Of a DNA stretch of 64,000 bases, positions 33,001 through 39,000 are shown piece by piece. Each line of letters begins with the position of its first letter. Position 1 is the stretch's first letter. Source of the stretch: Capsulimonadales bacterium. Its GTDB lineage: Bacteria > Armatimonadota > Armatimonadia > Armatimonadales > Armatimonadaceae. The DNA is taken from positions 1 to 64,000 of the forward strand of contig JANRLW010000126.1 of the NCBI GenBank assembly GCA_033762295.1. Reading direction: 5' to 3'. Made by a program: the position numbers.

Positions 33001-36000
33001 CTTCTGGCGGGCGCACGATCCCAGGAAAAAGCGCAAGCAGGAGCGCAGGTCGCCATCGCCCGTGCGAACCTGATGAGAGCGGAGGACGATTGGAAGCGAT
33101 ATGAGCGGCTGGCACGGGCCGGCGCGGTCGCGGAAATGGAAGCCGACCAGTATCGGACCAATCGGGATATTGCGGCGGAGCAGGTCCGGGCGCAGGAGGA
33201 AGCCCTTTCCCTGCTGAATGCGGGGGCGCGCCAACAGGAAATCGAGCAAGCGAGACAGGCCGTCCGACGGGCGGAAGAGATGCTACGACAGGCGAAAGCC
33301 ACCGAGGCGCAGATCGACCTGCGCCGGGCGGAGGTTCAGGCGGCGCAGGCGGTGCTATGGCAACGCCGGAACGAAAAGCTGATCGCGACGGAAACCCTGA
33401 GGGACGCCGACCTGGTCGCGCCCTTCGCCGGATGGGTCACCGCGCGTTCGGCGCAACCGGGGCAACGCGTCGCCGCGGATGAGACGCTGTTCACGCTCGT
33501 GAGCCGCGCGGTGTACTTCGAGCCATCGGTCCCCGAAACCGACTTCCGTCACCTTCGGGTGGGTGAGCGGGTGCAGGTAACCGTGGATGCCTTTCCCGGC
33601 CGTTCCTTTACCGGACGAATCACCCTGATGGGAGCCTCGGCGCAAACGACCGGGCGGGCATTTCCGGTCCGGATCGAGCTGTTGAACGATGACGGGCGGT
33701 CGCTGAGACCGGGAATGTTCGCACGAACGGTTCTTGTCCGTGGAACGAAGGGAGACAATTAACCATGCAGTGGCTTGCCAGGGTTTCGGTGACCCGACCG
33801 ATTTTCGCCGCGGTCCTGATTCTTTCATTGACCGTTCTCGGCCTTTTTACGCTGCCTCAACTGCCGGTGGAACGGTATCCGAACGTGGATATCCCGTTTG
33901 TGACGGTAATGACCGTGGTGCCCGGAGCGGGGCCAAAGGAGATCGAGTCGGAGGTAACGGAGATTATCGAACGTAACGTCGGAACGGTGCCCGGTATCTC
34001 CACGATTACCTCGCAATCGTCCGAGGGGGTTTCGCTGGTAACGATCGAGTTTGTGATCGAGAAGAACGGGGATACGGCGGCGCAGGAGGTGCGCTCCAAG
34101 GTGGATCTAGCCCTTGCCGATCTGCCGGTAACGGCCGAACGCCCGGTCGTGGAGAAGTTTAAAACCGATGATGTCCCGATTGTCGCCTTCACGCTCACGT
34201 CGCCCGGAGCGCCGTTACGCGAGCTGACGGAGTACGCTCGCTTGAAACTGCGTCCGCAACTGGAGGGTATCCGGGGCGTCGGTCAGGTAAGCATCGTCGG
34301 GGGAAGCGAGCGAGAAATCCAGGTACTGCTGGACCCGGAACGTCTGGCCGCGTTCGACCTTGCGCCGTCGGAGGTGCAAAGCGCCATCGAATCCCAGAAT
34401 CTGCTGGTTCCCGGCGGCGCCATCGTTCAGGGGACGACGCGCTTCTCCCTGCAAACGGAAGGGCGAGTCAAAACCCTTGAACAACTGGCGGCGATCGTAA
34501 TCCGGAAATCGGCAGGACGCGCCATCCGCCTTTCGGATGTCGGCCGGATCGTCGACGGTTCGAAGGAGGCGAAATCCCTCGCCCGTGTCAACGGCGAACC
34601 GGCGATCCTGCTCAATGTTCGCAAGCAGAGCGGCGAAAATACGGTCGCCGTCGTGGACGCCATTGAACAGCGCCTGAAGCGGATCGAGCCGACGATGCCG
34701 GAGGGCTACGAAACCCGGATCGTGCGGGATGAGGCGGTGTTTGTCAAGGCGTCCGTCCGGGACGTTCAGACGCACCTCATTCTCGGTTCGATCCTGGCCG
34801 CCGTCGTCGTACTCGTATTTCTGCGCGACTGGCGTTCCACAATCATCGCCGCGATCGCGATCCCCGCTTCGATCATCGCGACCTTTGCGCTGATGAAGGT
34901 CCAGGGGTTCACGATCAACGTACTGACGCTTCTGGCGTTGACCCTGGCGGTCGGTATCGTGATCGATGACGCGATCATCGTCCTTGAAAACATCGTTCGT
35001 TACCTTAATGAGCGGACCACGGACCGGAAGGAAGCGGCGATCAAGGCAACCAATGAGATCGGGCTTGCGGTCCTCGCCACTACCCTGTCGCTGGTCGCGG
35101 TCTTTCTCCCGGTCGCCTTTATCTCCGGGATTACCGGACGCTTCCTTGCCTCGTTTGCTTTGACCATGACGTTTTCGATCCTGGTCTCTCTGCTCGTCGC
35201 GTTCACCATTACGCCGATGCTCGGTTCGCTTTTCCTGAAACCGCATGCACACCCGCACGGCGCAGGGGATGTCCCCGGGAAACGGGATTGGTTGACGTTC
35301 GTCGAGGACGCCTATACCGCCGTCCTCGCCTCGGCAATGAGACATCGCTGGGTTGTGGTGGTGCTATCGGCGGGCGCGCTGATTGCCGTGGTGCCGCTCG
35401 CGCGTCATGCCAAGACAGGATTCCTCCCTTCCGAGGACCTGAGTATGTTCACGGTCACGGCGCGTTTGCCGGAAGGGACCGCCCTGTCGGAGACGGATCG
35501 GCAACTTTCCCTGCTGGCGAAGGAGCTTCAACCGCTGCCCGAGGTCAGTGCGACCGTGGTCACGGTGGGGGACGGAGGCATCACCAACCGGGGAACGATC
35601 CTGGTCAAACTCCATGAGATCCATGAGCGAAAACATCCTCTTTCTTCGTTCGACCTGATGGCGAAGGTACGCCAGGAGATTCTGCCGCGTTATCCGAAGG
35701 ACTGGACGATCACGGTGGCATCGACCGACTCCTTCTCCGAGAGTGATGCCTCGGTCCAGTATGTTCTGACCGGACCCGATCAGGACAGGCTGCTTTCTGC
35801 CGCCAATGCGATGGTTGCCGAGTTGAAGCGTCTGCCCGAAGTGGCGTCGGTCAGTACGAATGCGTATCCGGGGAAGCCGCAATGGCAGGCGCAGATCGAC
35901 CGGGAACGGGCCGCCGAATACGGGGTGTCGGTCGCCGATATCGCCCGGAACGTTCGTCTGCTGATTGAGGGGGAAAAGGTCTCACGATACAGCGAAAATG

Positions 36001-39000
36001 GCCGTCAGTTCGATATCCGGGTGCTCGCGGACGCCGATTTTCGGCATAATTCCGATGCTCTGCGTCGGTTCCGTGTTCCTGCGGCCTCGGCGACCGGCCC
36101 GACGACGATCCCGCTGTCCGACGTTGCCGGTTTCGTTCCTTCGACCGAACTCGCGGAGATCAATCGGTACGGTCGTCAGCGGGAGATCCGGGTTCTGGTG
36201 GTGCCGGTGCCGAATGCCTCCGTCGGCGGGTTACAGGAGGTCGCGGAGCGTGTTTACGCGGCGCAAGGGCTTTCCTCGGAGTATCGGATGTCCGCTGAGG
36301 GAGACGCACAGGAGACTGAAAAGACGTTTGCCGCCTTCGGTATGGCGTTCCTGCTGTCCATCACGTTTATGTATCTGATCCTGGCCGCACAATTCGAGTC
36401 CTGGGTCCATCCGGTGACGATCCTGCTGTCGCTCCCGCTCTGTGTGCCGTTCGCGCTCCTGCCGATCGTCGTGATGGGGGACTCTCTGAATCTCTATTCG
36501 CTACTGGGCATCCTGGTGCTCTTCGGCATTGTCAAAAAGAACTCGATTTTGCAGGTCGACCATGCGAATCAGCTGCGTGCGTCGGGTATGGAAAGGAATA
36601 AGGCGGTGATACAGGCTTCTCGGGATCGTCTGCGCCCGATTTTGATGACGACCATCGCCTTCGTCGCCGGGATGATCCCGCTGGCGATGTCCCATGAAGC
36701 GGGAGCGGCGACAAATCGTTCGATCTCCATCGTCGTCATCGGAGGGCAGACGCTTTCCCTCGCTCTGACCTTGATTGCGACCCCGGTGTTTTACTCGCTT
36801 TTCGATGACGGGATTCAGTGGTGGGCGAAGCGTCGCCGGGGAACCGGGACGCGGGGCATACGGAGTGTCGCGACAGGCGGCCTTTTGCTGGCGCTCATGG
36901 TCTGGGGGGCGTCCGGGGCGAAGGCTCAGTCGTCCGCCGTGGCCGGAACGATCCGCAGCGTCGATGAAGCCGTACGGATCGGACTTTCTCGGAATGCCCA
37001 ACCCCGGCTGGCCGCGGAGCAGGTGCAACGCGCGAAGGAGGTGACGGCGCAGTTCCGCGCCGCCCTGCGGCCACAGCCGTTCGTCGCGTTCACCTATACC
37101 CGGCTCTCGGACCCGAACGCCTTCGGAAGTACGGGATTGGCGGCGACCGGCAACCTGGCCGTGCCGGGCGGACCGTCGACCTCCCCGATTGCCCCGCCGG
37201 GAACGACGCCGGTCAACCTGCCCGATGACGCCGTACGCGTTACCCGGTCGCGTCAGGCGGACGCCGATGAACAGGAGACGTTGACACCGGAGGGGAATGC
37301 CAACCGGATCGATCTGAACGTGACGACGGCGCAGGTCGGCGTCAATCTCCCGATCGATATTACCGGGACGTTACAGCGAGCGGTCCGAATCGGTCGACAG
37401 GATGAGGAACTCGCACGATTGCAGGAGGAGCAGGTTCGTCAGGAACTCGCGCTCACGATCCGGATCGCCTGTTATCAGCTTCTGGCGGCGGAGGAGAGCG
37501 TGCGCGTGCAGGAGGCGGCCGTGGTCCGGGCGGTTGAACAGGTGCGTACGGTATCGGAAAGGCGTAAAGAGGGGGTGGTACCCGCTTTTGACCTGCTTCG
37601 TGCGAAAACGGAGGAACTGAGCATCCGACAGGCGGAAATCAATGCACGTAACCAGCGGGACGTAGCGCTGTCCGCCCTGACCAATCTTTTGAACGTTCCG
37701 GCGGAGACACCGATCCGACTGGAAAGTCCGGAACTCCCCTCGGAACCGTCGTTGACGCTTTCCGATCTGCTGACACAGGCGCTGGCGGCGCGCCCGGAGG
37801 CGCGTTTTGCGCGACTCAGCCTCGATCGTTCCGCGAACGCCGTTCGTTACGCCCGTCGGGGTTTGGAACCGCAGTTCAATCTTTCGGCGTCGGGGGTATA
37901 CAATGCAAATCAGGCGGGGTTCGGCTTCAGCGCTCGTCGGGCGACGGCCAGCGTCTCCGCCGTCGTTTCGTTGCCGCTGGACGATGGGGGAACGACCCGT
38001 GCGCAGGTCCGAACCGCCCGTTCGGAACAGCGTGAGGCGGACCTGCGGCGCGACCAATTCCAGCGGGGAATCGTCGCGGAGGTGGAGCAGAACCTGATTG
38101 CCGTTCGGGACGCCTATGCCCGCCATGCGGTCGCCCGGGAGGCGATCCGGGAAGCGAGAGCCGCGCTCGATATCGCCGCCTTGCGGTTTTCCGCAGGAGT
38201 CGGCACCCAACTGGAAACGCTGGATGCGCAGTCCGCTCTCACCCGTGCGGAGGGGAACGCTGCCAGCGCCCGGTTTGAGGTGTTGAGCAGTCTGGCCCGA
38301 CTCAAACGCGCCCTCGGCGAGGGGTGATTCCCGACCGGTCGCGGAGCGACATACCCACGCGCAGCCCGCGGGAACGTCGCTCCGCAATCTCGCTCAGTCG
38401 ATCCCGAGAGCCTGATGGAGACGGCGGACCATTTCGCGGGCGTAATCGCGCGACTTTCGACGGACGTCCTCCTCCGTGTCCGGAACCTGCTCGTCATGGA
38501 GGAAGCGGACCCCGGTTCGGGCGGCGATCTCCTCGGGCACCTCGTTCGGCAGTTCGATTCCGGCGCACGCGGCCGCGACCATCGTCCAGAGCCGCATCAC
38601 CGTTCGCAGGTTGTACCCGCCGCCGCCGGTGACGGTCACCGGCAGTCCGGCGGAGAGGTCCAACAGTTTCCGTACGGCGGACATCCAGCCTTCCGAGGTG
38701 AGGAGCAGGTGGGCGAGCGGGTCCTCCCAGTGGGCGTCCGCTCCCAGCTGCAGGACGACGGCCTGCGGACGGAAACGTTCGAACGCGAGCGGCACGACCG
38801 CGTCGAAGGCTTCATGCCAGACATCGTCCATCGTGTAAGGGAACAGGGGAACGTTAAGGGACGTTCCGGGTGCGGACGGTCCCCCGGTCTCCTCCGGGAA
38901 TCCGGTGCCGGGGAACAGATACTGGCCGCTTTCATGCAGCGAAACGGTCATGACGCGCGGGTCATCATAAAAGCAGTTCTGGGTGCCGTCGCCATGGTGC

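What a model noticed while it worked through the whole genome (the two positions that open the first line are those of the whole stretch)
33765..38327. Natural fusion of an RND efflux pump with its TolC-like outer-membrane channel, joined by an internal signal peptide
g04354 (C126:33765-38327, +, 1520 aa) is one open frame that holds a complete AcrB-type RND transporter (residues 5-1013) and a complete TolC/OprM-type outer-membrane factor (two OEP repeats, 1130-1518). Between them, right after the last RND helix, lies a classical signal peptide (RRR..., hydrophobic core VATGGLLLALMVWGA, A-K-A|Q-S) that would carry the channel half across the inner membrane and could be cut by signal peptidase. 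With the TetR regulator g04352 and the adaptor (HlyD) g04353 upstream, a whole tripartite pump is thus encoded by two genes. Inner-membrane pump and outer-membrane duct made as one polypeptide have, as far as I could find, not been described.
Evidence so far: Pfam table: ACR_tran 903 bits covering model 2-1020 of 1021 at residues 5-1013; OEP 65 and 94.5 bits at 1130-1310 and 1332-1518. No stop or frame change in 4563 bases (gene call; call 154 gives an open frame of 1544 aa). Same architecture (PF00873+PF02321 in one protein of 1464-1581 aa) in 8 other database clusters from other phyla, e.g. Fibrella sp. (45% identity over the C-terminal 531 aa), Bryobacter aggregatus and other Acidobacteria. 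In 5 of the 6 fused homologs whose residues 1001-1120 I printed (the sixth, 1464 aa, has its junction outside that stretch) the junction again shows basic residues, a 15-20 residue hydrophobic stretch and a small-x-small site (ARG|QEE, ANA|QR, GFA|AE, TRA|Q [...]
(Added by a program. Inside this text positions count along the whole contig: contig position 1 is position 1 of the stretch shown here. "Call 12" and the like, gene names such as g00115 and contig names such as C1 are that model's own, and its searches are not shown. The text may have been shortened before it was handed on; [...] marks where a part breaks off. The agent that wrote the report below was given it as the finding of a first reader that could run no searches.)

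Follow-up and report, generated by a model that had tools for sequence, protein, structure and literature searches.

The report
Efflux pump fused to exit channel
One gene here encodes both the inner-membrane motor and the outer-membrane exit channel of a drug-efflux pump, joined by the channel's own export signal, so the two are probably made as one chain and then cut apart.

Summary
Window 33765-38327 (+) is one uninterrupted 1520-codon frame. It holds a full-length AcrB-type RND permease (residues 5-1013) and a complete TolC-type outer-membrane factor (OMF).

It is not an assembly artefact. Orthologues with a continuous junction occur in two other genomes of the same family. 23 of 25 database representatives that I scanned carry both domains, two of them from cultured Bacteroidota.

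All 28 junctions examined have a basic stretch, a short hydrophobic core and a small-x-small site. In the window this is KRRRGTGTRGIRS, then VATGG...GASG, then AKA|Q at 1054/1055.

An AlphaFold2 model of the C-terminal half is TolC-like from about residue 1060. Only about 10 residues separate the predicted cut from the first OMF helix, too few for a chain tethered to the inner membrane.

Best reading: a polyprotein cut by signal peptidase I. Cleavage is inferred, not shown.

On an RND tree the fused forms are scattered (at least 8 changes; a single clade is rejected, p-AU 5e-87), so fusion or fission recurred.

With the TetR gene and the lipoprotein adaptor gene upstream, two structural genes encode a tripartite pump.

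Six full-text searches found no description. This scan has noted the same kind of fusion in at least 13 other genomes.

Verdict: a new variant of a known kind, of moderate interest.

The parts
31646..31674 (+). sigma-70-like promoter match (TTGACA-17-TAAAAT, 11 of 12), possibly the operon promoter
   Evidence: It was the only match in 31300-38800, where shuffles give a mean of 1.4, so this is weak evidence. It overlaps the TTG that the ORF listing takes as the TetR start.
31646..32344 (+). TetR-family regulator gene (true start probably downstream of 31646)
   Evidence: TetR_N 64 bits at residues 46-92; TetR_C_6 48 bits.
32497..33762 (+). periplasmic adaptor (MFP) gene, 421 aa, predicted lipoprotein with a long coiled-coil hairpin
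   Evidence: HlyD_D23 91.5 bits. TIGR01730 RND_mfp 146.7 bits, above its cut-off of 94.9; the N-terminus MKKNANECSFLLVAGMALLFPPLAGC carries an LAGC lipobox (motif recalled). The stop lies 2 nt before the next ATG.
33765..38327 (+). fused RND::OMF gene, 1520 codons plus stop
   Evidence: The orthologue in G012 is 52% identical over the full length.
33777..36803 (+). RND permease part (residues 5-1013), multidrug HAE1 type
   Evidence: ACR_tran 903 bits over the full model. RND_permease_2 842 bits, below its cut-off of 1250; nearest solved chains are 8gjj (5e-135), MdtB, CmeB, MexB and AcrB. D401/D402, K924/K925 and R955/R957 are present in the TM4, TM10 and TM11 motifs.
36825..36866 (+). basic cytoplasmic stretch after TM12 (residues 1021-1034, KRRRGTGTRGIRS), the n-region of the internal signal peptide
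   Evidence: 6 K/R between the end of ACR_tran and the hydrophobic core.
36867..36926 (+). hydrophobic core and c-region (residues 1035-1054, VATGGLLLALMVWGASGAKA). The predicted signal peptidase I cut lies after A1054, between bases 36926 and 36927.
   Evidence: site score 6 of 6, G at -4, A at -3 and -1, Q at +1. Cleavage itself is inferred.
36927..38324 (+). predicted mature TolC-type outer-membrane factor (residues 1055-1520, 466 aa)
   Evidence: AF2 mean pLDDT 82.5, high from about residue 1060. Foldseek match to Klebsiella TolC 7ng9 (E 6e-20, TMt 0.82), also E. coli TolC, OprM and CusC; two OEP repeats.
37125..37307 (+). Pro/Gly-rich insertion between the first two beta-strands (residues 1121-1181), a presumed surface loop
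   Evidence: pLDDT below 50 for model residues 112-172, between strands 95-103 and 177-188. The segment is also present in the G012 orthologue.
38394..39650 (-). convergent histone-deacetylase-family gene that marks the end of the operon
   Evidence: Hist_deacetyl 287 bits. The overlapping + strand ORF 38415-39629 has no Pfam match.

Best explanation
This is a genuine, selectively maintained gene fusion. One gene encodes an HAE1-type RND permease followed, without a stop, by the complete precursor of a TolC-type outer-membrane factor, signal peptide included.

Proposed mechanism:
- The RND part inserts into the inner membrane with 12 helices, leaving its C-terminus in the cytoplasm.
- The basic stretch 1021-1034 stays cytoplasmic.
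- The hydrophobic segment 1035-1051 inserts N-in/C-out as a 13th helix and starts Sec-dependent translocation of the last 466 residues.
- Signal peptidase I cuts after A-K-A(1054).
- The freed OMF goes to the outer membrane and trimerises. The permease keeps the signal peptide as an extra C-terminal helix.
- The lipoprotein adaptor encoded just upstream then bridges the two into an ordinary tripartite pump under TetR control.

The fusion enforces 1:1 synthesis of the two trimeric partners. What is shown: the fusion, its conservation, the signal-peptide anatomy and the TolC fold. What is inferred: translocation, cleavage, the final location of the OMF and the stoichiometric benefit.
For: - **One frame, two complete domains.** No stops in 1520 codons, with full-length ACR_tran and two OEP repeats.
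- **Conserved fusion.** G012 has a 1530-aa orthologue, 52% identical end to end, with an adaptor gene directly upstream. G021 has a continuous junction reading ...LLLLLPGAAWA|QEP. Further fused frames occur in G001 (1553 aa) and G006 (1451 aa).
- **Widespread architecture.** 23 of 25 scanned representatives carry both domains, including RefSeq proteins of two cultured species.
- **Signal-peptide anatomy.** In a first pass, all 27 junctions had 3-12 K/R before a hydrophobic core. With G021 added (28 junctions), my site score was at least 4 in 28 of 28 and at least 5 in 25 of 28, against 28 of 235 at 5 or more for hydrophobic cores inside the RND parts. 19 of 28 are A-x-A and 22 of 28 have P or G at -6 to -4. 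Core start to cut spans 12-24 residues.
- **Position matches a normal signal peptide.** The N-termini of stand-alone OMF relatives align to this segment.
- **TolC fold begins right after the cut.** In the AF2 model high confidence starts at about residue 1060. The short helices at model residues 57-67 and 69-90 lead up to the first strand, whereas the long helix 193-259 has 67 residues. Foldseek gives TMt 0.82 to TolC.
- **Geometry.** About 10 residues (at most roughly 35 A) separate the cut from the first OMF helix. That start sits roughly 65 A above the periplasmic tip of the barrel, by helix lengths at 1.5 A per residue. A chain still anchored in the inner membrane therefore could not have its barrel in the outer membrane.
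- **No separate start.** No ATG, GTG or TTG lies in frame between residues 1009 and 1040, so the OMF cannot be made with a full signal peptide of its own.
- **A plausible origin.** In G008, whose permease is a nearest unfused relative on the tree, RND and OMF are adjacent in the same frame, separated by one TAA and 5 codons; the OMF starts MKPNTVNFNTGILAAVLFACATTPAQA|QTE.
Against: - No experimental or proteomic evidence of cleavage exists for any member.
- The site score is my own heuristic, not a trained predictor.
- 39% of control hydrophobic cores reach score 4, so the lower threshold discriminates poorly.
- In G012 the best site has T or A at -1 in a less canonical context (PGTAW|TQE or PGTA|WTQ).
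- The G008 downstream OMF is only 26% identical to the window's OMF half. It illustrates a route to fusion, not the ancestor. The window's OMF half is closer (42%) to an OMF that lies upstream in an OMF-adaptor-RND operon of its own genome.
- The RND part scores below NCBIfam's curated subfamily cut-offs.
Confidence: 0.72

Rival explanations
1. The chain is not cut. The hydrophobic segment is a permanent 13th transmembrane helix, and the OMF half stays covalently tethered to the permease, either as a periplasmic duct or as one chain spanning both membranes.
For: Nothing shows cleavage directly. Some fused relatives have long linkers between the hydrophobic segment and the first OMF helix, for example about 50 residues in P0019 and P0088.
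Against: The window's linker is about 10 residues, while the folded OMF starts roughly 65 A above its own periplasmic tip. The small-x-small site is kept in 28 of 28 junctions despite little sequence identity. Core-to-cut lengths of 12-24 residues fit signal peptides. The adaptor has a long coiled coil of roughly 180 residues, which implies a distant OMF.
Confidence: 0.08
2. The OMF is made mainly from an internal translation start, so the fused frame is incidental and the long product is a minor or useless by-product.
For: Several fused relatives keep a Met exactly where an OMF start would lie: P0106 ...KKMKLSKAGIGVM..., P0028 ...RKMLAVATAM..., P0019 ...RVMKSFIF.... These look like relics of the original start codon.
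Against: In the window no ATG, GTG or TTG lies in frame between residues 1009 and 1040. The next ones (TTG 1041, ATG 1045) would leave no n-region and half a core. Without a stop, every permease chain carries the OMF anyway, so the long product cannot be minor.
Confidence: 0.07
3. The frame is an assembly or sequencing artefact, or a recent pseudogene-like read-through, in this draft genome (132 contigs).
For: The genome is a draft at 94.5% completeness. I could not check reads, because no run was listed.
Against: The same junction is continuous in G012, G021, P0002 and P0003 at 44-54% identity. GC3 is equal in the two halves, 0.734 and 0.730. Both halves match their Pfam models at full length, and the AF2 model is confident.
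Confidence: 0.02

Closest known systems
Canonical tripartite HAE1 RND pumps with separate genes (AcrAB-TolC, MexAB-OprM, MdtABC-TolC)
   Same: The same three protein families and probably the same final assembly. The permease half matches solved MdtB, MexB and AcrB chains (E 1e-116 to 1e-135). The channel half matches the TolC fold. The adaptor is above the TIGR01730 cut-off. A TetR regulator lies upstream.
   Different: Permease and channel share one reading frame. The channel has no start codon of its own, and its signal peptide is internal, following transmembrane helix 12. The channel has no lipobox cysteine, so it is TolC-like and not OprM/NodT-like.
Cytochrome b/c1 polyprotein FbcH of Bradyrhizobium japonicum (recalled from memory; two searches found no paper on it in the library)
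   Same: A polytopic inner-membrane protein is followed by an internal signal sequence and a second, exported protein, and the two are separated by signal-peptidase-type cleavage.
   Different: Both FbcH products stay in one inner-membrane complex. Here the second product would leave for the outer membrane. Cleavage here is untested.
RND::OMF fusions noted earlier by this scan in other genomes (CzcA-type in Bacteroidota; HAE1-type in Geotalea, a Verrucomicrobium and others)
   Same: The same architecture and the same inferred internal signal peptide. Those notes also report recurrence and no paper (unchecked AI notes).
   Different: They are in different lineages and partly a different RND family (heavy-metal HME). 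The window's clade is a separate origin on my tree.
SecDF of Thermus thermophilus (RND-superfamily gene fusion; seen in passages of PMC8277102)
   Same: Two RND-superfamily-related genes are joined into one polypeptide.
   Different: Both SecDF halves are inner-membrane parts of one protein, and no internal signal peptide or cleavage is involved.

Membership tests
RND permease, HAE1 type (Pfam PF00873, TC 2.A.6.2) | Full-length match to the family model | tested here: met
   ACR_tran 903.4 bits, model positions 2-1020 of 1021, cut-off 28. The best NCBIfam models are the multidrug ones (RND_permease_2, 842 bits), ahead of CusA/CzcA (391 bits).
RND permease, HAE1 type (Pfam PF00873, TC 2.A.6.2) | NCBIfam curated subfamily cut-off | tested here: not met
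   RND_permease_2 scores 842 against a cut-off of 1250. TIGR00915 scores 622.8 against 940.35. It is a divergent member and not an equivalog of any named pump.
RND permease, HAE1 type (Pfam PF00873, TC 2.A.6.2) | Proton-relay residues in TM4, TM10 and TM11 (AcrB D407/D408, K940, R971; numbering recalled) | tested here: inconclusive
   The motifs VIDDAI (D401/D402), VKKNSI (K924/K925) and RLRPILMT (R955/R957) are present. I did not check their equivalence to the AcrB residues in a printed alignment.
Outer-membrane factor (Pfam PF02321 OEP, TC 1.B.17) | Two OEP repeats and the TolC protomer fold (4 strands, long helical hairpins) | tested here: met
   OEP 154.4 bits in 2 stretches. The AF2 model has strands at 95-103, 177-188, 361-371 and 384-393, and helices of 67 residues. 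Foldseek gives TMt 0.82 to 7ng9 TolC.
Outer-membrane factor (Pfam PF02321 OEP, TC 1.B.17) | Trimer that forms a 12-stranded barrel in the outer membrane | not testable with these tools
   Three copies exceed the size limit of the complex predictor. Localisation needs fractionation.
Lipoprotein OMF (NodT/OprM type) | Lipobox with an invariant Cys at +1 of the mature protein | tested here: not met
   No Cys lies between residues 1021 and 1070. The site is AKA|Q.
Sec signal peptide cut by signal peptidase I | Basic n-region, hydrophobic h-region of about 7-15 residues, and small residues at -3 and -1 (rule recalled) | tested here: met
   The window has 6 K/R, the core 1035/1038-1050 and A at -3 and -1. 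A basic n-region was found in 27 of 27 junctions, and 25 of 28 junctions score at least 5. The score is a heuristic of my own.
Sec signal peptide cut by signal peptidase I | Actual cleavage | not testable with these tools
   No trained predictor is available, no proteome is held, and no sequencing run was listed.
RND periplasmic adaptor (TIGR01730) | Score above the curated cut-off, with the gene adjacent to the permease | tested here: met
   146.7 bits against a cut-off of 94.9. The gene ends 2 nt before the fusion's ATG. The same order is found in G012 and G006.

The most novel reading that the evidence does not exclude
The fusion is an adaptive biogenesis device, not a neutral accident. Translating the channel as the tail of its own pump delivers it through the same translocon, releases it by signal-peptidase cleavage next to its cognate permease, fixes the 3:3 stoichiometry, and leaves the permease with a 13th helix that may itself modulate the pump, as small single-helix partners such as AcrZ do (AcrZ recalled). 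Repeated independent origins would then reflect selection for coupled assembly of an inner-membrane and an outer-membrane protein.
Probability: 0.3. Interest if true: 0.75.

Novelty: new variant of a known kind. Interest (0 to 1): 0.55.

Why it matters
Tripartite efflux pumps are described as three separate gene products. How a cell matches a given channel to a given pump, and in what ratio, is an open practical question in efflux biology.

A natural polyprotein whose two halves end up in different membranes would be a clean model for three things: internal signal-peptide processing in bacteria, coupled biogenesis of inner- and outer-membrane partners, and pairing specificity.

It also matters for annotation. 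These genes are labelled only as 'efflux RND transporter permease subunit' or 'HAE1 family exporter'. Outer-membrane factors are therefore under-counted, and genomes can look as if a pump lacks its channel.

Cultured carriers exist (Fibrella aquatilis, Chitinophaga ginsengisoli), so the question can be tested directly.

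Tried and rejected
**Searches that found little or nothing**
- The search for related loci in genome contigs with the single 641-aa query: 340 pattern matches, none confirmed.
- Word-index search for long relatives of residues 1010-1520: only the query itself and P0002 among the 8000 candidates scored. The exhaustive representative search did better.
- A local phmmer check found both halves in only 16 of 151 stored proteins. It was less sensitive than Pfam, so I dropped it as a count.
- The look-up of sequencing runs for 36300-37700: none was listed and no RNA holder was listed. 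The junction could not be checked in reads and expression is unknown.
- Search for shorter relatives: only 7 stand-alone OMFs at E of 1e-20 or better. The AF2 alignment is therefore shallow, at 26 rows.

**Literature**
- Searches returned no paper describing an RND-OMF fusion.
- In PMC8277102 I saw passages only, and only the first 300,000 of about 748,000 characters are held; the search listing counts two further occurrences of 'fused' that I could not read.
- I also saw passages only in PMC4827864, PMC3707914 and PMC10924465.
- Subscription journals and TCDB are not covered.
- Searches found no paper on FbcH in the library.

**Not done**
- Complex prediction was not used. Three OMF copies exceed its size limit, and adaptor-channel pairs are textbook pairs.

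**Considered and rejected**
- Artefact, because the junction is conserved.
- A lipoprotein OMF, because there is no Cys.
- Independent translation of the OMF in the window, because there is no usable start codon.

Full report
**1. The observation**

The ORF listing gives one ORF at 33765..38327 (+), 1520 aa, starting at ATG. Its translation has no internal stop. Pfam places ACR_tran at residues 5-1013 (903.4 bits, model positions 2-1020 of 1021). It places two OEP stretches in the C-terminal third (154.4 bits, best at 1332-1518). The stop-to-stop frame is 1544 aa.

Directly upstream on the same strand are a TetR gene (31646-32344) and a HlyD-type adaptor gene (32497-33762). The adaptor's stop lies 2 nt before the fusion's ATG. 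A convergent deacetylase-family gene (38394-39650, minus strand) closes the unit. A sigma-70-like match (TTGACA-17-TAAAAT) lies at 31646-31674. It is one match where shuffles give 1.4, so it is only a hint.

**2. Is the fusion real?**

A search of 41 genomes (the window's own plus 40 relatives) with residues 880-1520 found matches spanning the whole query in four of them: the own genome, G012 (54% identity), G021 (53%) and G001 (29%).
- In G012 the gene is a 1530-aa ORF, 52% identical to the window's protein from end to end. It carries both Pfam domains and is preceded by an adaptor gene.
- In G021 the contig cuts the gene, but the junction is continuous.
- G001 has a fused ORF of 1553 aa and G006 one of 1451 aa, both carrying both domains.
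- Two more OMF matches, in G023 and G020, lie in frames of 1485 and 1484 aa. I did not examine these further.

An exhaustive HMMER search of 1.84 billion 50%-identity representatives gave 46,917 hits at E of 0.001 or better. From its best 150 I chose 25 long or junction-spanning proteins for Pfam, and 23 of the 25 carry ACR_tran plus OEP. Eleven are full-length (1449-1629 aa) and 12 are fragments.

Two of these are RefSeq proteins of cultured Bacteroidota (Fibrella aquatilis, Chitinophaga ginsengisoli), and one is from an Armatimonadota MAG. All are named only as RND permease or HAE1 exporter.

GC3 is the same in both halves, 0.734 and 0.730. An artefact is therefore very unlikely. The own genome has 5 RND frames and 4 OMF frames, and only this one is fused.

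**3. The junction**

After the last RND helix (...TPVFYSLFDD) come three elements:
- KRRRGTGTRGIRS (residues 1021-1034);
- VATGGLLLALMVWGASG (residues 1035-1051);
- A-K-A (residues 1052-1054), followed by Q1055.

The first OMF helix begins at about S1065 (SVDEAVRIGL...), which is the position where stand-alone relatives begin their mature domain.

I compared junctions in two passes. I then added G021 and scored all 28 junctions with a home-made cleavage-site score (small residues at -3 and -1, no Pro at +1, P or G at -6 to -4, polar residues after the cut):
- 28 of 28 reach a score of 4, and 25 of 28 reach 5.
- Of 235 hydrophobic cores inside the RND parts of the same proteins, 28 reach 5 and 91 reach 4.
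- 19 of 28 junctions are A-x-A, and 22 of 28 have the helix breaker.
- Core start to cut spans 12-24 residues.

The sequences of these segments are otherwise unrelated, so it is the signal-peptide character that is conserved, not the residues. The score is a heuristic, not a trained predictor.

**4. The C-terminal half is a complete TolC-type protomer**

I ran AlphaFold2 on residues 1010-1520 with a 26-row alignment. The model has mean pLDDT 82.5 and pTM 0.72. Four strands and two 67-residue helices are predicted with high confidence from about residue 1060. Confidence is low over the signal-peptide segment and over a 60-residue Pro/Gly-rich insertion between the first two strands.

Foldseek against the PDB returns only OMFs at the top: Klebsiella TolC 7ng9 (E 6e-20, TMt 0.82), E. 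coli TolC, VceC, OprM, OprN, CusC and MtrE. By sequence the nearest solved chains are TolC proteins (3e-15). There is no cysteine near the cut, so the channel is not a lipoprotein OMF.

**5. Why cleavage is the best reading**

- *Topology.* An RND permease ends in the cytoplasm (established knowledge of the family). A following N-in/C-out helix is therefore exactly what is needed to export the next domain.
- *Geometry.* In the model the chain rises from its start through two short helices (11 and 22 residues) to the first strand, while the long helices have 67 residues. At 1.5 A per residue, the start of the folded OMF sits roughly 65 A above the periplasmic tip and only about 35-50 A below the barrel. 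The roughly 10 residues between A1054 and the first helix can span at most about 35 A. A chain still anchored in the inner membrane cannot have its barrel in the outer membrane. The dimensions of assembled AcrAB-TolC, recalled at about 320 A overall, make the gap far larger.
- *The adaptor.* It has a lipobox and a coiled-coil region of roughly 180 residues, which suggests a channel held far from the inner membrane.
- *No separate start.* There is no ATG, GTG or TTG in frame between residues 1009 and 1040. The next candidates (TTG 1041, ATG 1045) would give no n-region. The channel therefore depends on the upstream frame.

None of this shows cleavage. It remains an inference, to which I give about 0.75.

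**6. Origin and recurrence**

I built a maximum-likelihood tree of the RND parts: 15 fused and 22 separate proteins, 1051 columns, IQ-TREE quick search with LG+G4.
- The window's protein groups with P0002 and the G012 orthologue (support 100).
- The sisters of that clade are two unfused permeases, one from G008 and one from the own genome's contig C69.
- The fused state needs 10 changes on the tree, and at least 8 are forced by well-supported branches.
- Constraining all fused rows to one clade costs 1704 log-likelihood units (p-AU 5e-87). I named the group after seeing the tree.
- Two long branches were flagged (G001 fused, own C2).
- The rows were chosen by similarity to my query, so the count is a lower bound on a biased sample. 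It cannot separate gains from losses.

G008 shows how easily the fusion can arise. Its adaptor, RND and OMF are separate adjacent genes. The RND stop (TAA) and the OMF start are in the same frame, 5 codons apart, and the OMF begins with a normal signal peptide. That OMF is only 26% identical to the window's channel half, so it illustrates a route and is not the ancestor. The window's channel half is nearer (42%) to an OMF that sits upstream in an OMF-adaptor-RND operon on C69 of the same genome.

Several fused relatives keep a Met where the old start would be, which is consistent with read-through of a lost stop.

**7. Comparison with what is known**

The parts are ordinary.
- The permease is a divergent multidrug-type RND. 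Its best NCBIfam model is RND_permease_2 at 842 bits, below the 1250 cut-off, and it scores well above CusA/CzcA. The nearest solved chains are MdtB, CmeB, MexB and AcrB.
- The adaptor is above the TIGR01730 cut-off.
- The channel is TolC-type.

What differs is that permease and channel are one polypeptide with an internal signal peptide. The nearest mechanistic precedent I know is the cytochrome b/c1 polyprotein FbcH of Bradyrhizobium japonicum. I recall this from memory; the library returned nothing on it.

**8. Is it in print?**

Six full-text searches found no description. They covered fusion phrases, the two Pfam accessions together, domain phrases, and RND+OMF+MFP+fused+TCDB.

In the 2021 Chemical Reviews article on tripartite pumps I saw passages only, and only from the first 300,000 characters. 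None concerns such a fusion. The 2016 survey of outer-membrane pore families lists fusions of porins but none for OMFs in the passages I saw.

Subscription journals and TCDB itself could not be searched.

This scan's own notebook holds the same kind of finding in at least 13 other genomes, with follow-ups that also found no paper. Those are unchecked AI notes and not independent evidence.

**9. Verdict**

The finding is a real, conserved and recurrent fusion of a known pump with its known channel. It is most likely a signal-peptidase-processed polyprotein. The function (efflux under TetR control) is ordinary, but the biogenesis route is unusual and apparently unstudied.

It is a new variant of a known kind. 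I score interest at 0.55. A specialist would be mildly to moderately surprised, and the question of cleavage and coupled assembly is directly testable in cultured carriers.

Noticed in passing
L022:6651-6881 (minus strand; genome G008): In a related genome the RND and OMF genes are separate but in the same frame. One TAA and five codons divide them, with a Shine-Dalgarno-like AAGAAAGGAAAA before the OMF ATG. This is a plausible pre-fusion state.
   Followed up: yes
P0002 versus L019:1465-6057: The public protein labelled 'MAG: Fibrella sp.' is 82% identical to the fused orthologue of G012, a genome of the same family as the window's. Its phylum label is probably a binning or labelling error, or it reflects a recent transfer.
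   Followed up: partly
window 37125-37307 (residues 1121-1181): A 60-residue Pro/Gly/Thr-rich insertion lies between the first two beta-strands of the channel. It has low AF2 confidence and is presumably a long surface loop. A similar segment is present in the G012 orthologue.
   Followed up: partly
alignment A1, N-terminal columns (P0004, P0153, P0154, P0140, P0157, P0158, L022 OMF): Many stand-alone OMF relatives carry a 30-60-residue Pro-rich spacer between their signal peptide and the first OMF helix. The window's fused form lacks it.
   Followed up: no
window 32497-33762: The adaptor has a lipobox (LAGC), a Pro-rich tether and an unusually long Ala/Gln/Arg-rich coiled-coil region of roughly residues 110-290. 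This is longer than I recall for AcrA-type adaptors.
   Followed up: no
window 31646-31674: The only promoter-like match in the region overlaps the TTG taken as the TetR start, so the real TetR start is probably further downstream.
   Followed up: no
P0079 residues 436-457: One fused relative has a lipobox-like LAGC inside its internal signal peptide, followed by PARA|QE. It may be a lipoprotein-type (signal peptidase II) variant of the same fusion.
   Followed up: no
P0081 (1525 aa; 90%-identity cluster of 18 members): This fused relative has a strongly acidic cytoplasmic spacer (14 D/E) between TM12 and the hydrophobic segment, unlike the basic spacers of the others.
   Followed up: no
window 40131-42779 (+): An 882-aa ORF with no Pfam match at E of 0.001 or better.
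   Followed up: no
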